Shown piece by piece: positions 41,790 through 53,200 of a DNA stretch of 64,000 bases (position 1 is its first letter; every line of letters starts with the position of its first letter). Origin of the DNA: Moniliella sp. 'wahieum' (lineage: Eukaryota); NCBI GenBank assembly GCA_003971905.1, contig RSEE01000086.1, positions 1-64,000 of the forward strand. The letters run 5' to 3'. The translations under genes were made by a program, and so were the position numbers. The notes under the pieces are model-generated. The model ran no database searches. It was given only the letters and a program-made list of their open reading frames with translations, and had not been told where the DNA came from.

Positions 41790-42332
41790 GCTGGGCACAC
41801 AGTGGCGATGGTGGAGGAGCAGCAAGCTACCTGTCCCGCGCGGCAAGTGGCTAGTGGCGGGCCGCCCGCTGAGTCCTGACGTCATCCATCGCGGACGCAG
41901 GATGAAGATGAAGTAATGCATGCCGCCCCAATTGGGAATGTTAGTGCGAGCGGAATGCCACGGCGCGCAATTCCCACCAATTCCCCTGCTGGGCACCCCA
42001 GCCCAGCGCCAGCCACCAGGTTCCCCAGGCGGTGTGACATGTGATTAACAGCTACACTGGTCAGCTGGCCAGGCCCAGTCAGTCGGTCCATCCGCCGGTG
42101 CGTCCCGTCGCGCTGGCCACTCCCAAGTCGCGCCGCTGTCCTTGGCGACGCAGCCTATAACCCATCGGGCCCTCGGTGGGGTCTGCTCCCATGTTCCCAT
42201 GGTGCCCACTGTGGTTCCCTCTCTCTGGCCTGTACCATCTACCCTACCTCTCTCGCCTCTCGTGTGGAAACCAACCAAAAGGTATGCATTTTGACCTGGC
42301 AGGCACGCCAGTGGAAGACCACCGGTTGGGCC

Positions 42333-44587
42333 TCAGGGTCGCGGACGCAGAGAAAGTGAAACGTGGCGCTTAAGGCTGCCCAGTAAGCTTGGTCGTGGTG
42401 CCGGGTCGGCCGGCGGCGGGGCAGCCAAAGGTGGTGGGCGGTGGGTCGAAGAAGAACGGGGCTGGGTGGAAGACGAACGGTGGGGGACAGAAGGAGAGCG
42501 GTGGTGGGTAGAAGAAGAACGGTGAGGGGTAGAAGGAGAGTGATAGTGGGTAGAAGAAGAACGGTGGTGGGTAGAAGAAGAAACGGCGCGGAGCCGGGGC
42601 CGGGGCCGGCACGGTCGAAGTAGAAGTCACACTAGAGCCAGGGCCGTTGAGAAGAGGCTTGGCTGCTACCGCACCATTGCGGGCGGTCGGGGGTAGAAGA
42701 AGGTGTGGGGGGAGGCCGAGGCAGGGGCCGCAGCCGGGGCCGGGGCTGGGGCTGGGGCTGGGGCTGGAGTGGTGGATGCGGAAGGGGCCAAAGGAGGGGG
42801 TTGCGGGGGGTTCCGTGCTTCTTCCCCCCTTGGCGGGGACATGGGTGAGTCCAAGCCGGGATCCGCAGTGGGACTGTTGCATGGGCGGCAACGGGGGAAG
42901 ATGGAGAGCTAGGTCCCAAGGGACTTGGCTGCCGAGGCGGGGGCAAGAGGGAAGAAGAAGTGCTAATGCGGGGGCCCATGGACCAGGACCGTTCGAGCGA
43001 CGAGAGAGCGGTCCCAGGATTGGCGCGGTTCCACCCTGCCGAACCTTGCAACAGCGTGGGCGACGGGATGGAGCTAGGACGCGGTTTGGCTTCCTCCAAT
43101 TGGCGCATCATCTCCCTCGCGCTCCTTGGCGTCCCTTGGCACGAGCGGCGGCGCGCGCTGCGGCGCGAGCTGCCTCGGCCTCGGTCTCCGCCGCCTGGAC
43201 AAAAACATCTGGCGACTCGGTGCGTACCACGTCGTCACGTGGTGGCTCGTGGCGGGAAGCGCTGGAGATGCGGACAGCGGGGACGCGTACCGCGCGGCCC
43301 CGAGGGCGGCGGGGAGCGGACGCGCGGCAAAAGGCACTGGCGTTTCGTGGTGCGGCTGGTACAGACGCGAGGAGGGCAACTGTCTCGCGGCCAAGGTCTT
43401 GTCCTTTGATGTTTTCGCGCCGCGCTGGGCGACCAGGGCGGGGAATAGTCGGGCTGCTGCGCTCGCTCCAACATCGGCACACACTTGCCGCACGCACAGG
43501 CTGGGTTGAGTCGCTCGCGAACGGGCCATTTTCGTTCGGGAAGCACGGGCTCGGGCAGCTCGACCGGGGCCGTAACGGAACGAATGCGGGCCAGGGCGCC
43601 GCGCATCGACAAGCGCTTTGCCTTGCCCGGTGCAGGCGGCGGGAAACGGGGGGCGGCACGGGCGCAGGCGGCGGCGCAGGCGACAGGAGGGCCCACGGCT
43701 CGTTCCACCTCGCAGGCAGCGGTTGCACGAAGCCCACCATGCGCGTACCTGGGTCTCGATGGGCACAGGGGTCTGGTTGGGCTCCGGCGGGGCCGCCGGG
43801 GCGGGGCTGTGGGAGGCAGTGGGCGGGTTGCCCATGCTGGGAAAGGGGGACATCCTCCGAGTCCTCGGTGCCATCGGGCGTCGAGCCTTCCTCCTCCGAC
43901 TCGTCGCCGCCGCCCAGGTTGAGGGCCTGCATGACGGGCTTGGGGGTCAAAAGAGACGGACTGGGGGTGGGGCGATGGCCGCTGGTGGGGATGGAGAGAT
44001 TGCGGCCGTCGTGGTCGTGGTTGGTCGAGGTCGGGGTCGGGGTCGGGGTCGGGGTGGTGGTTATGGTGGTGGTGGTTGGAGGATCGTCGTCGGGTCAGAG
44101 ACGAGGGCTGCGGCAGGGTAATGATGCGCGGGTGGGGCTGCGCGTGGGCAGCGCATACACGGCAGCGGGAGCAGGGCCGCGGCGATGCCAGCCGGGCCAG
44201 ACGTGCCGGCGAGGGAGACCTGCGGCGACGAGCTGGGCGGGCGGGGCACAGTCGCGCTCCAGCTGGGCGAGGGGTCCTGGTCGTCGTCGTCGGGGGGGTC
44301 GGGGACGAGGCCCATGCCGGCGGCGTTCTTGGTGTTGTGGACGGTGAGTGCATAGCCGAGGCCGCGGCCGAGCTCGGAGTTCTGGACGGCATGCTGCGGG
44401 CGAGGGCGGCGTGGGCGGGGGCGAGGGCGCGAGGGCGGACGCGGCGGCGGCGGGGGGCGCGGCGGGCGGGGGCGGGGGCGCGGCCTGGAGCTCGGGGCGG
44501 TCGGGCGGGCGGTAGGGGGGTGCGGGGTGGTGGCCGTCCGTTGATCACGTCGACGAAGCCGACGAAGGCAACCGCCTTGGGCGCCAT
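42333..44587 (-). CDS. Hypothetical Pro/Ser-rich protein
   Basis: Start MAPKAVAFVGFVDVING; globular-looking QHAVQNSELGRGLGYALTVHNTKNAAGMGL; EDSEDVPLS; frameshift-linked long minus ORFs; divergent from the VPS9 gene. Confidence 0.5.
42438..42582. repeat. 21-bp coding tandem repeat x~7
   Basis: ggtggtgggtagaagaagaac variants (RSSSTHH-like on the minus strand). Confidence 0.85.
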
Positions 44588-44754
44588 GATGGGGGGGCGG
44601 GGGGGTTGGCTGCAAAGGGTAAACTAGAAACGCCGATTGGCAGACTGCGCACCCCGCCTGCCCGCTGACGTCAGCCGCCCAGCTGCCACATGCAGGGGGT
44701 TATGCGGGGGCTAGGCCTTATAACCCCCCCCCCACCACCACCACCACCACCGCC

Positions 44755-47700
44755 ATGCCCGCCGCCGGCGAGTACGACGCGCCGCTGGCGTATGCGCCCG
44801 CCCGCACACGCCACCACCCGCGCCCCGCCCCATCGCCCTCGCCCTCGTCGCCGTCGCCGTCCTCGCCATCCCCATCGCCCTCCGCCGCGTCCTCGCCCTC
44901 GCCCTCGTCCTCCCCATCGCCCGCACCCGCACCCGCCCCAGCACCCGCTCCGCCCCCCGCCCTGCCCCAGTGCCCGCCGCACTACCCCCCCCCCAGCCCA
45001 CCACCACCACCACCTCACCCCTCGCTGCCGCCAGGCCGCCCAGCACGCCATGGCGCCCGCCTGGCGCAGCTCGCGCTCCCGCCCACCTCCTCGGCGCCGC
45101 CCTCGCCGACAAGCTCGCCGCCGTGCCGTGCTCGCCCCCCCAACGACTGGGGCCGCGTCTTGGCCCTGCTGGCGGGACATGCCACGCTGCTGTCCCGCGC
45201 GCCCCGTGGCCCCCGGGCAGGAAATCCCCCTCGCCCTCGTCCTCGACCATCTCGTGCTCACCCCGCCGTGCGCCAGGCCGGCGCCCCGCTGGTCACCCTC
45301 TCGGGCCTGCGCGCCACGTACACCGCTGCCACCGACTCCGCCCCGCCCGCTCGTCTTCTGCGCCTTTGTCCCCAACCCCCGCTTCACCCTCCACACGACC
45401 CAGCCCGCCTGGCCGATATGTCGCTCCCTCGTTCCGCCCTCTGCCGCCCTGGCGACCGACCCCCACAACCCGCACATCACCCTCCCCTGCCGCCCCCCAC
45501 CCCCACCAAGTCTGCTTCCGACGATCAGTTCACCTGGCCCCGGCTATTGTACGCCGCGCCACCGCCCGCCCAGCGTCCCGCCCCGGCCGAGCTCCACGTT
45601 TGAACGGCTGTTGCCGGCTCGCGTCCCCCTCGCTCTTCGGGCCCCGGCTTGCGCGATCATGTCAATAGGGCCGACTCCGAAGAAAACAATGTCTCCTTTG
45701 TACAGGTAGTTGGCCGTGCCGCCATCACCTGCGCCGTCTGGCCACCGAGCAGGCTCTCTCCAAGTCGGATCTCCTTGCGGCCATGGCGGCGGCCATGCAA
45801 AGCGCATCGGCCACCTCCTTGCTCAAGCCAACATCCCCCTGCAGTGATCGATGTAGTAACCAGCTTTGCCGCCGCCTTCTATCCGCAGATGCCCTCGAAT
45901 CCTGCCACAGGCTAAGCAGCAGTGCGGGAAACCGGACAAGCGTTGCCTCGCTTGGTTCCAACCACAGCGGATCCCACACACTGCCCCCCTGGGCCCTGTC
46001 CCGCTCCCGCTCCGAATCGGACACGGAGGCCTGCTCCCTTCCCCCAAGCGTCCGTGGAGGAGATGGCAGAGACGGTGCAATCTCTGTATGCCAGTGTGGC
46101 TGTTCAACTTGCTCCCGAGCTGGGCGAGTCCCAAGACGATGAAGCCCCGCTCTTGCCACCGTGCACAGGCAACTGCATGTGGTCGAGGAGGTGGTGACGA
46201 CCGAACTGTACGACCGCCTGTTTGCGCCGTACCACTCGACCGACCGCGAGTTGGACGCAACGTTGGCCTCGCGGATCGCTGCGCTGAACCTGCTCGGTCT
46301 CGATCTGCCCCACTTGGGCCTCGTCCTTCCGCCCGCCGAGTCCGAGGCTGGAGCGCAAGTGAACGAGACGCTGGGTACGCTGGTGCGCCAGTGCGGCGCG
46401 TTACTGACGAGCCTGGATGCGATGGATTGCCGCACGCCGCACGACAAGCTTGCTGTCCTGGTCCAAGCCCACCATTTGTTGGCCGAAGGCGTAGCACGCT
46501 TACCGCCCATTGAGCTACGTGACGAGCCGGCGATTGATGCCGTCGGGACAGAGCCGGCAACAACCGTATTGGAGACAAGCCCACTGCTCCTGTTGACGTT
46601 CCGGGCGCCCGCGCGCCGACCCAGGGCGCCGCCTCGGCCGATTTGATCCTCCCGCTGCTGATTTACAGCGTTGTCAAGTCCAACCCGCGCGATTTGGTGA
46701 GCCAACTACTGTTCACTGAGCGGTTCCGTGCCCAGGGCCTATCCGTCGGAGAAGAAAGCTACGCACTGGTCAATCTTCAAGCGGCAGTTGCGTTTATTGA
46801 GAACGTGTCGCCTTCAGCCTTGGGCTTTAAGGACGCCGAATCGGTTCTGCCACCGCCGGCGATGCTGCCTGCGCAATCTGCTCCTACGAGACCGAGGGAG
46901 GACGAGTCCTTTTCCGCCTTGGCGATTGGCAATCGTGTGCGCACGCCTTGCCTCCGACTTGGGCGACATTGCAGGCGCGTCCAACAAGGTGGTTGCGGGC
47001 GTACTCGGTAGCTCCTTGACGGCTTTTGGCCGCATCCTCGTACCCCTCCTAGCGGGTCCACGCCTGATACTTCACTTGCTACTTCGGTGCCCGCAGCGCA
47101 CGAGGCAGAGCCGCACCCAACCCCCCGACCCCACTCTCCGCCCGCTGCCGTTCGGAGGGCTGTGCCTGCGCCGCCCCTCTTGTCCACGGCGGCTGGGGAA
47201 CCAGAGCGGCCCAAGCGCGAGCGCAAGGTTAGTTTGGTCGCCGCGGCCGAAGATCGAGAAGAGGCGGCTGAGGCGCCCCGGGCCAGTTTGTCGGAACGAC
47301 TGGCTGCGCTGCCCGTGTTGAACCGGCTCGGCGCTGGTGCGCGCCCGCCGAGTTGGGCAGTGCGCCCGCTGCAGCACGCGAAGTCGATGTGCCTCCCTCG
47401 CTGCTGTCGCCGTACCCGCCGCTGCACCGGCCGCCGTCGAGCAAACGGCCAGTCCATGTGGTGCTTGCGTGCTCGGGCTCGGTGGCCAGCTTGAAAGTGC
47501 CACATATCGTGTCGGGCTTGCTGGCGCATCGCAATGTGCGCGTTCAAGTGGTGCCACGCCGGCCTCGTTGCATTTTTTCGATCGGCAGCAGATTGAGCTC
47601 ATGGCATGGACTGCCGCCGGTCGGCCAATGCCCAACCCCACGCTCGACTTTGGCCTGGGAGAAGACCCGCCCGAACCGAGGAGGCCGAGGCCGAGGCTGA

Positions 47701-48655
47701 GGCTGAGGCTGATCCAAGTCTCAATCCCACTGCCAGTCCCAATCCAATCAGCCAAGGCGATCGGGATCGCCTGTCTCGGCGGCCCTGCAGGCGCAGGCAG
47801 CCAGTGAGGTGCACAGCGACTATACCGTGCTGGACTTGGCCATGGAAAATTTAGCTGCGACACGACGGGATGCGCGTCTGGCCGCCAAGCGGCCCCGACT
47901 CCATCTCTGGACCGACGAGGACGAGTGGACGCAATGGAAACGCGTCCGCGATCCGATCCTGCACATTGAGCTAAGGCGCTGGGCCGACGTGGTGCTCATC
48001 GCACCGTGCTCGGCCGACTTGTTGGCCAAGCTGAACGCCGGGCTGTGCGATACGTTGGTCGTACGTCCCCCCCCCCCCCTCCTCTCTCCCCACTTCCCTT
48101 GCTACCTTCAGATCTGGCTGACTGTCGTTTTGCTTGTCTTTGTTTCCCATGTGCTTTGGGGCTGTCCAGACGAGCTTCCTGCGTGCTCTGTCGCCTACCA
48201 CACCAACTTACCTCTTCCCGGCGATGAACACGCTGATGTGGATGCACCCGCTCACCGCACAGCACATTAGCTTTGTGTCGTCCGTGCTGGGGTACGAGGT
48301 GGTGGGCCCAATTGAGAAGCGTGGCCTGTGGCGATGTAGGCCAGGGCGCCATGGCCGAGTGGCGCGATATTGTGCAAGTGGTGGTGCGCAGATTTGCACT
48401 GGAGCGCATCCCGCTGCCCCCGCCGCCTTCTCACTTGGACGCCACGATGCCCGCAGTGCCCACCATGGCCACCATGGCCACCATGCGCATGATGCGCATG
48501 ATGCGCACGATGCGCACGATGCCCACCATGCCCACAATGCCACGCATGGGGCGGAGGGAGCAGCGGAGGAGGACCAGCCGCCGCGGCTGCCGTCGCGGCC
48601 TTCGTTCCTGGCGTCGCTTGCGGAGGCCGCGAGCGATGCACCGGCTGCCGGGTGA
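44755..48655 (+). CDS. VPS9-domain Rab5 GEF apparently fused to phosphopantothenoylcysteine decarboxylase (Hal3/Cab3 flavoprotein)
   Basis: VPS9: ELYDRLF...D..LASRIAALNLLGLDL.HLG, TPHDKLAVLVQAH, ADLILPLLIYSVVKSNP, GEESYALVNLQAAVAFIEN (46180-46805). PPCDC: HVVLACSGSVASLKVP, WTDEDEW, PILHIELRRWADVVLIAPCSADLLAKL, FPAMNTLM, ACGDVGQGAMAEW (47455-48400). No intergenic gap between them. Confidence 0.75.
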
Positions 48656-49036
48656 GGCGTGACGCGTGGGCTCAGGCCAGAGGCCGCGCGGGTGTTGCAG
48701 CGGCGGTGCTCGAATGGCAGTCGCAGCCATGTTGTTCCTGGATGATCTGGATGGGGGGACACGGTCGGCAGTTCCTCGCTACCATAGAAACCAGAGAGCA
48801 CAAGACAGCGCCGGGCAGATTACCCCACAGTCTGCATTACGTTACATTAGGTCGGCGGGCAGGGGGGGCGTATTCGGAATTGCACCGGGTGGTCTGTGCG
48901 GGCGACGCATCGGCCGGCTAATAGTGTGCACCGCCGGTGGCGCAACTCGGCCGAGCGAGCGTGCAGAATAAAAGCCACGCGCGTCTTCTTCGTCGGGGCG
49001 GCCCACCCCACCTTACCAGTACGCCTTGCGGCTACC

Positions 49037-50218
49037 ATGTCTGCCTTCACGCCCATCCTTCTCGCCTCGCCCACGCTCCAGGTCGCCCTGCTGCCCTTTG
49101 GCCTCACCATCCAGTCCATCCAGGTCGCCGGCCAGGAGGTGCTGCCGTCGTACGAGGACCCGCGCTCCCACGGCCCGCCCAACCGCGCGTTTTTCGCGCC
49201 CATCGTCGGCCGCTTTGCCAACCGCCTGCCGGCCGGGGCGGTCCCCTTTGGTCCGCCGCGCTCGGTGGCGCATCTGCTCGAGTTCAGTGCGCCCGGCATC
49301 TCCCACCACGGCGGTCCCGCTCCGGACCATCTTGCTCCGGGCTTGCTCCAGCATGGGCCGTTTGACCAGTGCATCTGGACTCATCTCCCGCTCGCTGACG
49401 CCACCCTCTTCCGCCTGCCGATGCGCCTGCCGACACGGTGGCTTCGGCCCTGTTTGCGCTCGAATCGCCCGACGGCGACCAAGGCTACCCCGGCCACCTT
49501 CGCGTTGAAGTCCTCGTCGCCCTCACTGCCCCGGCCACCGCGACCGACCCCAAGGACAAGGGCGCTGTGCATCTGCTCTACCGCGCCAAGATCCTAGATG
49601 CAACCCCTGTCACGCCGCTCAACCTCACGCACCACTGGGGGTTCAATCTCACCGCCGGCTCGTCGCTGCCTGCGGCGCTCGAGGAGCACGGACAAATTGA
49701 TGCGCACACGTTGACGCTCCCGCCCAGTACGTTGCTCGAGACGGACGCGCGGGTTTGCCGACCGGCGAGCTGCTGCCCATTGCGAGCGGCGACGCACACG
49801 ACTTTACCAAGGGCAAGCGCTGGGGGACAAGATGCCTGCGGGCGGGTACGACTACTACTTTTGGGGGCCGGAGCAGGCTGGGCTCGTGCGCTTGGCCGCT
49901 GCCTCGACGGGGATGGAGGTGGTGCTGCGGTCGGACCAAGTAGGTGCGCAGCTGTACACGACCAATGGTCAACCGGCCTACCCGGCGCCTGCGAGCCAAA
50001 CGGGCGGCGCACGAATGCAAGCGCTGGACCATGGTGCTGACCGGGCCCGGTGGCAGCAGCTCGGCAACCAGCAACGGTGCTCGGCGATGATCGAGTTTGG
50101 TGCCCCCCATGCTACCTTTCTTCACCCGCACCTCGCCCAGCAGGCCGGCACCGACACGCTCCTACGCCAAGGTCAGGTGTACAGCGCCCACACCAGCGCC
50201 CAGTTCTTGGCGCCCTAA
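49037..50218 (+). CDS. Aldose 1-epimerase / galactose mutarotase
   Basis: IVGRFANRL, HHGG, SPDGDQGYPG, TPLNLTHHWGFNL, GYDYYF, DQ...QLYT, MIEF. Confidence 0.92.
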
Positions 50219-53200
50219 CCCCGCCCGTTCCTCGTAGGCCCGAGAGACGCTGCCTGCTTGCTCGTAATGGAATACACTGGATATATGGACCCTTTGGACG
50301 AGAAGAATCCGCGGTAGCAGCGGATGGACGCCGAGAGTGTAGCGCTATAAAAACGTACAGGTGAGCAGGGTGGGATCCACCTCTCAGTGTTGCCTGCACA
50401 TCGCGGTCGTATCACACGCCCTGAGTGGGACAGCAGCGGCCTCAGTTCTTCCCCGCGCAGATCGTTTGAGGTGGTTGCTCTCCTCCGTCTCGCATTTGGT
50501 CACGGTGGTCCCGAGTGGAGTTTGGGGTGCTTCGATTTCAGTTTCCGCAAAGGCATAGGTGATGGCAGCAAGACAGACCAGTACCTTTGGTATTGCGGAT
50601 TTGTCAGACACCACTGCCGTACCCATTGAACCAAGCGGAACTCCGGCTCGGTGTGCGGCTATCGCTTTCCTTGGTCTTAAATCAGCTTCCATTTTGTCCG
50701 CTCTTTACTAGTCTGTCCCATTCTGGCACTCTTCCTCCTCCTCTTCCACTCCTCTTCCCAACAAGACAACAACAGGACCCTTGGGTTAATCTCCTTCTTG
50801 TCACCTTCTCTAACCCGACCACACTACGCTGCATCTCGCCTCTTCCATATACCAACCTCTTCCCCCACCTGTTCGGATGCTGTGACCTCTCGGGCCTAAT
50901 GATATGCGGACCCACATAGTCTCTCTTTTGTATCATAGTATCGCCGGCTTGTTCGACCGCCTGTCTCTTCCAGGGCGGGTATGAGTCTCCGTCCTCTTGA
51001 ACCAACACCATATACTGGTCGTTGCATTGCGCTGTTTTCCCTGAGGGTCTCACCCAACTCTCTTTGGATGTTGAACCGGAGGTGAGCCACCTGGTGGCTC
51101 GTGCATTTTTGGCCACAGGGTAGTCCCTTCAGTCCCTTCTCAAGCGTAGGAGTTTTGGGGTCTTCTCTCGCTTCTGTCCTTCCTGTATGCAGCAACTGAT
51201 CCCGGTGGCAACTGGCTGCTTGATGTCCCTCTGTGTTTGTAGGCTGGCTTAGACCACCAACATCACCACCATAAGTGAGATTGCGTCACCCTAGACGAGG
51301 GCCATCAGAATCTCCAGAACTCAACATCAGAAGAGTGACAGATCGGCCAGCACGCCCCCCATTCCCATTCCCTTCGCTGGGCGTATGTCGTCAACAATTA
51401 TTATATCTGCGCCATTCCGCACTCTACTCTTACCTTTCGAACCCGGACTGTGGATGAAATCCCATCTTCCCTCCTTTTCCAACCGAACAAAAGGACTCTC
51501 ACCATTCGAACGTACTCCTCGCTCCTGCATGCCACCAAGGATCAGCAAGGCCAACTAACACCAAACTCTATCTTCGGTATCATGCTCTTGACGGGCACCG
51601 GACACCTATAGTATATGCCACAAAGGCGACAGTCGTTTTCCCGAGTTCCAGTGCCACCGACAAAGTATATATGTCGATCCCATTCGAATCACTCGACCAG
51701 AAGATCATGACAATGGCCGGTTACCCAGATATTAAGCGAGTACCCCGCGATCCATCGATCCTCCCAAGAGTCTGTGTAGTGGCACTTCAATTCAACGAAT
51801 GTGTTCTCCAACGGACTCTCATGTGCCGGAAGCATTCCTGGAAGAGAGCAAAAAGGGACGAAGCCCGAGACTCTACGTCTCACTGTCACGGAACGAGTCG
51901 TGTGGATTGTACGATGGAGTCAGACGTAAAGGGGTTCGAAAAGAGCTGGCTGTCTAGGCCGGAGGTTTCTTGTTGTGCGTACCGGCAGAACTATGTTGAA
52001 CAATTTACTCTGCCCCCTCAATGGCCCGGTCCAAGGCTGGATGCACGAACACGCTTGGGCCATTGCCAGACAGCCTATCCGGCATTGAACTGGTCGTCTT
52101 TTTCCAAATTCGTGGTCAGCATGGTCGTGACAGGGACACTATCTCGAGATCCGTGTCTGCGTCACCGAGTCACTGTGGAACAAAGCCAATTGAGCGCGAG
52201 GTCCAAGATCCCGACCATATATAGACTCGAATGGCATATCCCTGAAGAAGCTGGCTCCTACGCATTCCTCCGTCAGCCCAGGTGTGAAAGTAGTGCACAC
52301 CTTCATCCAGATACCCGGATGAAGTTGGATGGGGCAAGAGGGGCGACGTCTGGCCTATATAACAGGATGGATATTGGGAGAGGAAACTTTCTCCAGAACC
52401 GCCATATAGCAGCTGATACGCCCACCTTAGCAGCCCACCAGTGCAGGAGACGATCCACAGATATGCAGCAACTGATCGCAGTACGCGTGGTCATGATTGC
52501 AGGATCGATCGGAGGAGGTGAACTTGAGGTTGCTCACAGAATGTTTCCACGAAGGGAGCCAAGTGGTGACGCAATCGGGCGTGAGTTAGGACGGGATCGC
52601 GAGGGGTCGGGATGACTTGAGACATGTTTCGTGCGATTGCTGGACACAAGAACGGGAAAGTACCAAGCCTATCGAGCACCGTCGTCAGCTGGGCAATAAG
52701 ACCAACTCGAGGCTCTCGTTCCTCTGCGCACCATCTTCTCCGTGTGGCGGTGGTAATTCAAGCGTTAAGAGGAAAGCGGCATGTTGGTGACGGCAAAGCA
52801 TATTACGGGGAACTCTTGGCGCTTTGTATGGCAAATCACTACTCTATGGTTCATTGCATGCCGTCAGTTTCTCCTTTCTCCTTTCGACGCCGCGCGGTCA
52901 TCGTAGCAACACTTGTTCGCCGGGTGGATCCTCCCGAAGAGGAAGACGCCCGTCCCGTGGGTCTGGCTCCTCCGCGGACCGTGTTGCCCGTTGGGAGGGA
53001 TAGTGACTGTCGCGAGGGTGGAGGAGGGAGGTCTGCCTGAACGCGGCAGTGGTTACCCACAACCACACGCGTAGAACTGCGCAGTGCGCAGCAAACTCCC
53101 TCTGTGGATAACCCTCGTTCCGCGGCGGCCTTTTTCTACCATCTTACGGCTGTGAATTGGACGTGGGAGGCCGGGATACTGAGTCACCACAGGGGGCTCG

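What the first reader, a model, noticed from the sequence alone, without database searches (positions are those of the whole stretch)
44755..48655. Apparent fusion of a VPS9 Rab5-GEF with a complete PPC decarboxylase (Hal3/Cab3)
Seen: after the VPS9 domain, coding sequence continues (…APRASLSERLAALPVLNRLG…EVDVPPSLLSPYPPLHRPPSSKRPVHVVLACSGSVASLK) into the flavoprotein, through only 1-bp-type frame slips, with no intergenic space and no in-frame ATG suited to a separate PPCDC. The catalytic His (PILHIEL), Asn (PAMN) and Cys (ACGDVG) are all present. Established: PPCDC is a CoA-biosynthesis enzyme forming trimers; fungal Hal3 proteins moonlight as Ppz phosphatase inhibitors, and S. pombe Hal3 is fused to thymidylate synthase. 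Inference: one polypeptide could place CoA synthesis or Ppz regulation on endosomes and oligomerise the GEF. I cannot tell whether this architecture is already catalogued in relatives.
Basis: partly seen in the sequence, partly recalled or inferred. Interest (0 to 1): 0.8.

Follow-up and report, generated by a model that had tools for sequence, protein, structure and literature searches.

The report
Known smut-fungus VPS9–PPCDC fusion gene
This is one real gene that joins an endosome-trafficking activator to a coenzyme A biosynthesis enzyme, but the same fusion is already published from corn smut, and the many frameshifts here are assembly errors.

Summary
The fusion is real, but it is known. 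The gene is an ortholog of Ustilago maydis UmHal3, a VPS9 domain plus C-terminal PPCDC. UmHal3 was shown in 2019 to be an essential, active PPCDC that does not inhibit Ppz1 (PMC6695811). An uninterrupted relative aligns at 67% over 1055 residues, with 23 frame slips and no stop. A second copy in this assembly supplies the missing bases at 21 of 24 slips, and linker differences are 11 of 15 synonymous. The two copies are the only PPCDC genes found. 33 of 53 hits carry both domains, across seven smut-fungus orders; a long N-terminal extension in Exobasidiomycetes was noted in 2022. The Ppz-regulation idea is not supported. Small additions: the VPS9 catalytic Asp is invariant (33 of 33). PPCDC stands where unfused orthologs have a conserved C-terminal motif (70 of 83 versus 0 of 41). 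Malassezia PPCDC is stand-alone and starts at the junction. What the GEF half does is still untested.

The parts
44755..48655 (+). Whole fused gene (UmHal3 ortholog), ATG 44755 to likely stop TGA 48653-55; at least 24 frame slips in this assembly, one intron
   Evidence: same ATG in the second copy; the N-terminal LAYAP motif is shared with P0001 and P0002
45010..45775 (+). Conserved folded N-terminal domain (P0001 about 66-317; window coordinates approximate), also in unfused orthologs; weak FAS1-like fold
   Evidence: pLDDT mostly 80-97 apart from a loop at about 247-295; 13 of the top 27 rows are FAS1-type by title or recall, Z 5.4-7.7, below the tool's reliability line of 8; alignment
45820..46860 (+). 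Helical bundle plus VPS9 catalytic core; catalytic Asp codon 46640-46642
   Evidence: Pfam; P0001 model matches AtVPS9a at Z 22.5, rmsd 3.1, 235 residues; the Asp aligns to the site changed in AtVPS9a D185N
46861..47385 (+). Coding, mostly disordered linker with two short motifs inherited from the ancestral GEF (a post-VPS9 helix and SLSERLA at 47285-47332)
   Evidence: between the two copies, 12 of 15 substitutions in 46831-47450 are at codon position 3 and 11 are synonymous; pLDDT below 50 over 679-845; SLSERLA-like motif seen in unfused orthologs
47386..47454 (+). PPCDC N-terminal segment (PxSLxSPYxxL), equal to the first residues of stand-alone Malassezia PPCDC; marks the fusion junction
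   Evidence: Malassezia P0234 residues 2-59 match 47386-47559
47455..48060 (+). PPCDC exon part 1 with low-complexity insertion; catalytic His 47962-64
48061..48169 (+). 109-nt phase-0 intron (GTACGT...CAG, branch-like CTGAC at 48118)
   Evidence: splicing restores colinearity with P0002; P0001 and P0003 run off at the same point
48170..48401 (+). PPCDC exon part 2: Asn 48227-29, Cys 48327-29 (after a 2-base loss at 48321)
48402..48655 (+). Lineage-specific low-complexity tail, His-rich in the frame ending at 48655; not acidic
   Evidence: 14 His and 10 Asp/Glu in 69 codons; frame inferred from the second copy

Best explanation
One gene makes one polypeptide of about 1250-1300 residues: folded N-terminal domain, helical bundle and VPS9 core, a long disordered tether, then PPCDC. 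The PPCDC end is the organism's only decarboxylase for CoA synthesis and works as an FMN homotrimer. Activity is shown for the U. maydis ortholog; the trimer is inferred from the family. The VPS9 end is most likely an active nucleotide-exchange factor for Rab5-type GTPases, secondary to canonical Vps9 (inferred, about 0.75). The two halves fold and probably act largely independently, so a trimer carries three GEF arms. The gene most likely arose once, early in Ustilaginomycotina, by head-to-tail joining of an old fungal VPS9 gene with a downstream PPCDC gene, losing the GEF's last 40-50 residues. It persists mainly because the essential PPCDC now depends on the GEF's promoter and start codon while the GEF is still selected (inferred, about 0.55 against functional coupling). 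It does not regulate Ppz1. The frameshifts are long-read-type assembly errors.
For: Uninterrupted orthologs: 3 of 3 hits and 33 of 53 carry both domains. Complementary slips in the two copies (21 of 24) and a synonymous-biased linker. No stand-alone PPCDC: all 6 matches to Malassezia PPCDC lie in the two fused copies, and the other flavoprotein loci read as PAD1/UbiX type (named from recall of the motifs). UmHal3 is essential, full-length protein is expressed in yeast, and the PPCDC domain alone complements. VPS9 Asp, Pro and Tyr are 33 of 33, and PPCDC His is 33 of 33. All 34 fused VPS9 parts form one clade among unfused fungal orthologs. The tether is disordered.
Against: No transcript or read evidence for this organism. 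Three of 24 slips (44965, 47358, 47781) are not resolved by the second copy. GEF activity has not been measured in any paper found. The Thr of Rabex-5 and AtVPS9a in the last VPS9 helix is Val or Ile in 33 of 33. Support for single origin is modest: 0.787 in the VPS9 tree, and unresolved in the PPCDC tree. A Testicularia 'flavo protein' of 313 aa is annotated separately. Over-expressing the N-terminal part in U. maydis gave no phenotype.
Confidence: 0.8

Rival explanations
1. Functionally coupled fusion: the GEF half brings the PPCDC trimer to Rab5 early endosomes (local CoA synthesis), or the trimer replaces the lost C-terminal motif as the GEF's clustering or targeting element.
For: The fusion is kept across seven orders. 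The ancestral C-terminal motif is in 70 of 83 unfused long orthologs and 0 of 41 fused proteins. The catalytic Asp is invariant.
Against: The PPCDC domain alone complements in yeast and E. coli. The tether is long, variable and disordered. Malassezia uses a stand-alone PPCDC. Basidiomycete PPCDCs are annotated with several unrelated partners, which points to opportunistic joining or gene-calling errors.
Confidence: 0.25
2. Two adjacent genes (VPS9, then PPCDC) that only look fused because of assembly errors.
For: Three frame slips fall between the domains, and the one at 47358 is not cleanly fixed by the second copy. There is an ATG at 47387, where Malassezia PPCDC starts.
Against: That ATG is out of frame and is ACG in the second copy, a synonymous change in the fused frame. 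Linker substitutions are 11 of 15 synonymous. P0001 and its 4 cluster mates cross the junction without a break and without a Met.
Confidence: 0.03
3. A decaying pseudogene whose frameshifts are real.
For: At least 24 slips in 3.9 kb.
Against: No stop in the aligned path. Slips differ between the two copies. Frame-breaking indels between the copies also occur in the neighbours: 25.2 per kb upstream, 16.4 here, 5.1 in the aldose epimerase. No other PPCDC was found.
Confidence: 0.02
4. Moonlighting Ppz phosphatase inhibitor, as with S. cerevisiae Hal3.
For: A degenerate basic-basic-x3-V-S-L stretch lies in the window's linker (1 of 35 sequences). UmHal3 binds ScPpz1 weakly.
Against: The UmHal3 PPCDC domain does not inhibit Ppz1 in vitro, and full-length UmHal3 gives no inhibitor phenotype. 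The true motif is in 0 of 35 sequences and the window has no acidic tail. The degenerate stretch is not kept in P0001. Full-length UmHal3 could not be purified, so it was not assayed in vitro.
Confidence: 0.04

Closest known systems
Ustilago maydis UmHal3 (UMAG_05916), PMC6695811
   Same: Long N-terminal extension with a VPS9 domain, C-terminal PPCDC with His/Asn/Cys, no acidic tail, sole PPCDC of the genome, and a separate canonical Vps9 elsewhere.
   Different: Distant lineage: the window is 62% identical to unnamed P0001 and about 35% over long alignments to named relatives; it sits on a long branch beside Tilletiaria. It has a His-rich tail. UmHal3 itself was not among my hits, so the comparison is through Ustilago and Sporisorium orthologs.
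Stand-alone eukaryotic PPCDCs: AtHAL3a, C. neoformans Hal3 (6eoa), human PPCDC, Malassezia PPCDC
   Same: Fold and catalytic motifs; Malassezia shares the N-terminal junction segment.
   Different: No VPS9 module.
Unfused fungal VPS9 family (Cryptococcus, Rhodotorula, Mixia, Wallemia, agarics, Mortierella, Coemansia; no published name found)
   Same: N-terminal domain, VPS9 core with insertion, and linker motifs in the same order.
   Different: They end in a conserved C-terminal motif that all fused proteins lack.
Rabex-5 and AtVPS9a catalytic cores
   Same: Helical bundle plus VPS9 fold, catalytic Asp.
   Different: Thr to Val in the last helix; insertion inside the domain; no zinc finger or CUE domain reported by Pfam.
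S. cerevisiae Hal3/Vhs3/Cab3 and S. pombe Hal3 fusion
   Same: PPCDC core with an extension or fusion partner.

Membership tests
UmHal3-type VPS9-PPCDC fusion | VPS9 domain and C-terminal PPCDC in one reading frame | tested here: met
   (1 of 3 junction slips rests on P0001 and a homopolymer difference)
UmHal3-type VPS9-PPCDC fusion | Orthology to the Ustilago/Sporisorium proteins | tested here: met
   one clade of 34 fused VPS9 parts, support 0.787; whole-protein tree
UmHal3-type VPS9-PPCDC fusion | Only PPCDC in the genome | tested here: met
   (6 of 6 matches in the two fused copies); the assembly may be incomplete
UmHal3-type VPS9-PPCDC fusion | One mRNA and one protein in this organism | not testable with these tools
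   no run could be laid on the region; shown only for UmHal3 expressed in yeast
PPCDC (HFCD flavoprotein) | Catalytic His, Asn and Cys motifs | tested here: met
   window has all three; relatives: His 33 of 33, Asn 27 of 33 (6 gaps), Cys-Gly-Asp 27 of 33
PPCDC (HFCD flavoprotein) | Enzyme activity, FMN, trimer | not testable with these tools
   activity and flavin shown for the U. maydis ortholog; trimer inferred there
VPS9 Rab5-family GEF | Helical bundle plus VPS9 fold and catalytic Asp | tested here: met
VPS9 Rab5-family GEF | Nucleotide exchange on a Rab5-family GTPase | not testable with these tools
   no assay in the papers found
Ppz-inhibitory Hal3 (moonlighting) | R/K-R/K-X3-VTFS motif in the N-terminal extension | tested here: not met
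   0 of 35; motif from PMC10084417
Ppz-inhibitory Hal3 (moonlighting) | Acidic C-terminal tail | tested here: not met
   10 Asp/Glu in 69 tail codons
Varp/Vrl1 subfamily of VPS9 proteins | Conserved folded N-terminal domain before VPS9 | tested here: inconclusive
   a folded N-terminal domain exists, but no Varp sequence or structure came up for comparison; the Tilletiaria stretch SFEEAFF resembles the N-VARP motif quoted in PMC11817943, but this is not conserved
Varp/Vrl1 subfamily of VPS9 proteins | Ankyrin repeats (often absent in fungi per PMC6032885) | tested here: not met
   Pfam gives only VPS9 and Flavoprotein for 3 of 3 fused proteins

The most novel reading that the evidence does not exclude
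In an ancestor of the smut fungi the PPCDC trimer replaced the conserved C-terminal helical motif of a second, possibly Varp-like, Rab5 GEF and took over its clustering or targeting role. A CoA-synthesis step would then ride on Rab5 early endosomes as a three-armed GEF. Malassezia would have reverted by losing the GEF half and keeping the junction segment as its new N-terminus.
Probability: 0.2. Interest if true: 0.6.

Novelty: already known. Interest (0 to 1): 0.25.

Why it matters
As a discovery it matters little: the fusion, its enzyme activity, its essentiality and its failure to inhibit Ppz1 were published in 2019. One question is left open in that paper: what the VPS9 half does. The catalytic Asp is invariant, the junction is mapped, and the GEF's ancestral C-terminal motif is missing from every fused protein examined. 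If the GEF half does place PPCDC on endosomes, it would link CoA synthesis to endosome traffic in smut fungi.

Tried and rejected
Sequencing runs: none was listed for 45600-48700, so no reads were laid; this is no evidence either way. Earlier scan notes: 0 findings. ESM Atlas on the N-terminal domain: no usable hit for P0001 or P0002. The whole-model Foldseek search gave only VPS9 and flavoprotein matches at E below 0.01. The N-terminal domain was not folded alone, so the FAS1 likeness stays a hint. The PPCDC tree (50 rows, 213 columns) could not place Malassezia inside or outside the fused group (support 0.37); its C87 row was mis-cut and is ignored. Four agaric rows dropped out of the VPS9 tree because the cutting pattern missed them. 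The first motif count, 60 of 61, used a set picked by eye and was replaced. That count is still partly circular, since the profile was built from 60 of those proteins; the 0 of 41 is not circular. A pattern for the SLSERLA motif caught only 14 of 41 fused and 20 of 83 unfused proteins, so that motif's sharing rests on reading sequences. The organism was not identified. No Malassezia, Tilletia or Moniliella name appeared among VPS9-bearing hits, but these searches are length- and word-limited, so absence is not shown. The upstream gene has no Pfam match in 6 of 6 frames tried. No complex prediction was sent: GEF-Rab and the PPCDC trimer are textbook pairs. Literature searches: searches found only PMC6695811 naming VPS9 together with PPCDC or Hal3; subscription journals are not covered.

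Full report
Observation. The region 44755-48655 holds, on the + strand, a VPS9 domain and a PPCDC-type flavoprotein in that order, spread over all three frames. A search with the 84-residue VPS9 core returned 3 proteins, all 3 annotated with both PF02204 and PF02441; a fresh Pfam scan confirmed both domains in 3 of 3. The closest, unnamed P0001, aligns to the window at 709 of 1055 identical residues, with 23 frame slips and no stop on the path.

The slips are assembly errors. The assembly has a second copy on G000:C87, 92.6% alike over about 9.5 kb. Over the gene the two copies differ by 89 substitutions and 78 indels, 59 of them single bases, split evenly between the copies. At 21 of 24 window slips the second copy supplies bases within 20 nt; 44965, 47358 and 47781 are not resolved this way. 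At 47358, the slip in the quoted junction, the second copy shows four G against three, and P0001 is continuous. Substitutions between the copies fall at codon positions 1, 2 and 3 as 9, 12 and 45. In the linker (46831-47450) 12 of 15 are at position 3 and 11 are synonymous, so the linker is coding in the fused frame. The ATG at 47387 is out of frame and reads ACG in the second copy. Frame-breaking indels between the copies also affect both neighbouring genes. A search of the genome with Malassezia PPCDC found 6 matches, all in the two fused copies. The other flavoprotein loci read as PAD1/UbiX type (named from recall). PPCDC is needed for CoA synthesis (established knowledge), so the gene should be intact. 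No sequencing run could be laid on it.

It is published. PMC6695811 (abstract, whole Results, first part of Discussion and passages read; supplements not seen) describes U. maydis UmHal3: 1430 residues, Vps9-like sequence at 777-894 and a C-terminal PPCDC. Full-length protein and the PPCDC domain alone rescue E. coli dfp-707 and yeast cab3 or hal3 vhs3. The gene is essential. The PPCDC domain does not inhibit Ppz1 in vitro, and full-length protein gives no inhibitor phenotype. The function of the VPS9 region is stated to be unknown, and a closer Vps9 exists elsewhere in the genome. The authors limited the architecture to Ustilaginales. PMC10084417 (passages) later noted long N-terminal extensions in Exobasidiomycetes as well, and defined the Ppz-inhibitory motif; that motif is in 0 of 35 fused sequences. 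PMC9604783 (passages) agrees that basidiomycete PPCDCs are not Ppz regulators.

Range. Of 53 hits, 33 carry both domains; of 64, 30 do. The 16 named fused hits are 15 smut-group fungi and one record labelled as a plant. They cover Ustilaginales, Urocystidales, Violaceomycetales, Georgefischeriales, Ceraceosorales, Exobasidiales and Microstromatales (Ustilaginales from the paper). Named VPS9-only orthologs come from other basidiomycetes and from early-diverging fungi. In a tree of the VPS9 part (57 rows, 203 columns) all 34 fused sequences form one clade, support 0.787. The window and P0001 sit on a long branch next to Tilletiaria; the organism is not identified. Deep relationships in this subphylum are unresolved (PMC7451774, passages), so loss in Malassezia versus later gain cannot be decided.

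Anatomy. An AlphaFold2 model of P0001 (60-row alignment) has a confident N-terminal domain, a confident helical bundle and VPS9 core, a disordered stretch at 679-845, and the first two-thirds of the PPCDC (P0001 retains the intron). The core matches AtVPS9a at Z 22.5 over 235 residues; the N-terminal domain weakly matches several FAS1-type folds, Z up to 7.7. The VPS9 Asp aligns to the site changed in AtVPS9a D185N. Asp, Pro and Tyr are invariant in 33 of 33 relatives, while the nearby Thr is Val or Ile. Unfused orthologs end in a conserved helical-looking motif 8-45 residues from the C-terminus. It is found in 70 of 83 VPS9-only proteins of 700 residues or more and in 0 of 41 fused proteins (partly circular on the first count), and not in the window's six frames. 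Stand-alone Malassezia PPCDCs begin exactly with the segment that precedes the PPCDC core in the fusion. The junction therefore lies between 47333 and 47385. A Varp-type identity for the GEF half is a lead only: PMC6032885 (passages; one supplement file searched without hits, its Table S1 perhaps not held), PMC9507130 and PMC11817943 (passages) describe a conserved Varp N-terminus and ankyrin loss in fungi, but no direct comparison was possible.

Mechanism. Shown, for the ortholog: one protein, active and essential PPCDC, no Ppz inhibition. Shown here: one frame, both sets of catalytic residues, a flexible tether, and loss of the GEF's C-terminal motif. Inferred: a homotrimer with three GEF arms, an active but secondary Rab5-family GEF, and a fusion kept mainly because it cannot easily be undone. 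The rival, functional coupling on endosomes, is not excluded (about 0.25).

Verdict. The architecture is already known. Interest 0.25, for the open question of the VPS9 half and the junction mapping.

Noticed in passing
window 42111-51640 and G000:C87:257000-266500 (L015): The assembly holds two versions of this block, about 2.3% diverged by substitutions in the gene (89 of 3824) and with complementary indels; PAD1-type loci are paired too (L001/L003, 90%). It looks like two haplotypes or subgenomes in an unpolished assembly.
   Followed up: partly
L007-L013, L016 (contigs C39, C15, C4, C161, C176, C120, C17, C90): Canonical-type VPS9 genes look expanded: about four sequence groups 68-77% alike, one of them in four copies 97-99.6% alike.
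   Followed up: partly
window 48402-48655: His-rich repeat tail (14 His in 69 codons) after the PPCDC; repeat number differs between the two copies; not seen in Tilletiaria P0002.
   Followed up: partly
window 44588-44754 and the minus-strand gene starting at 44587: Only 167 bp separate the fusion's ATG from a divergent, unidentified gene with no Pfam match; probably a shared two-way promoter.
   Followed up: partly
window 49038-50218: Downstream neighbour is an aldose 1-epimerase, also broken into three frames.
   Followed up: no
P0035, P0037-P0042 (Vanrija, Cutaneotrichosporon and unnamed): Another PPCDC fusion: 7 of 53 hits pair the flavoprotein with PF06677 (autoantigen p27 domain); confirmed by Pfam for P0035. 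Single records also pair it with BTB, PX or NDK domains and may be gene-calling errors.
   Followed up: partly
P0014 and P0062: Smut-type proteins labelled as plants (Cichorium endivia, Mucuna pruriens). P0014 groups tightly with fungal sequences, so it is probably assembly contamination.
   Followed up: partly
P0060 (Testicularia cyperi): PPCDC annotated as a separate 313-aa protein that carries the junction motif: either a split annotation or a true fission within Ustilaginomycetes.
   Followed up: no
C-termini of unfused fungal VPS9 orthologs, e.g. P0067, P0192, P0201, P0223: A conserved 35-40 residue C-terminal motif with no Pfam family, kept from Mortierella and Coemansia to agarics; function not found.
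   Followed up: partly
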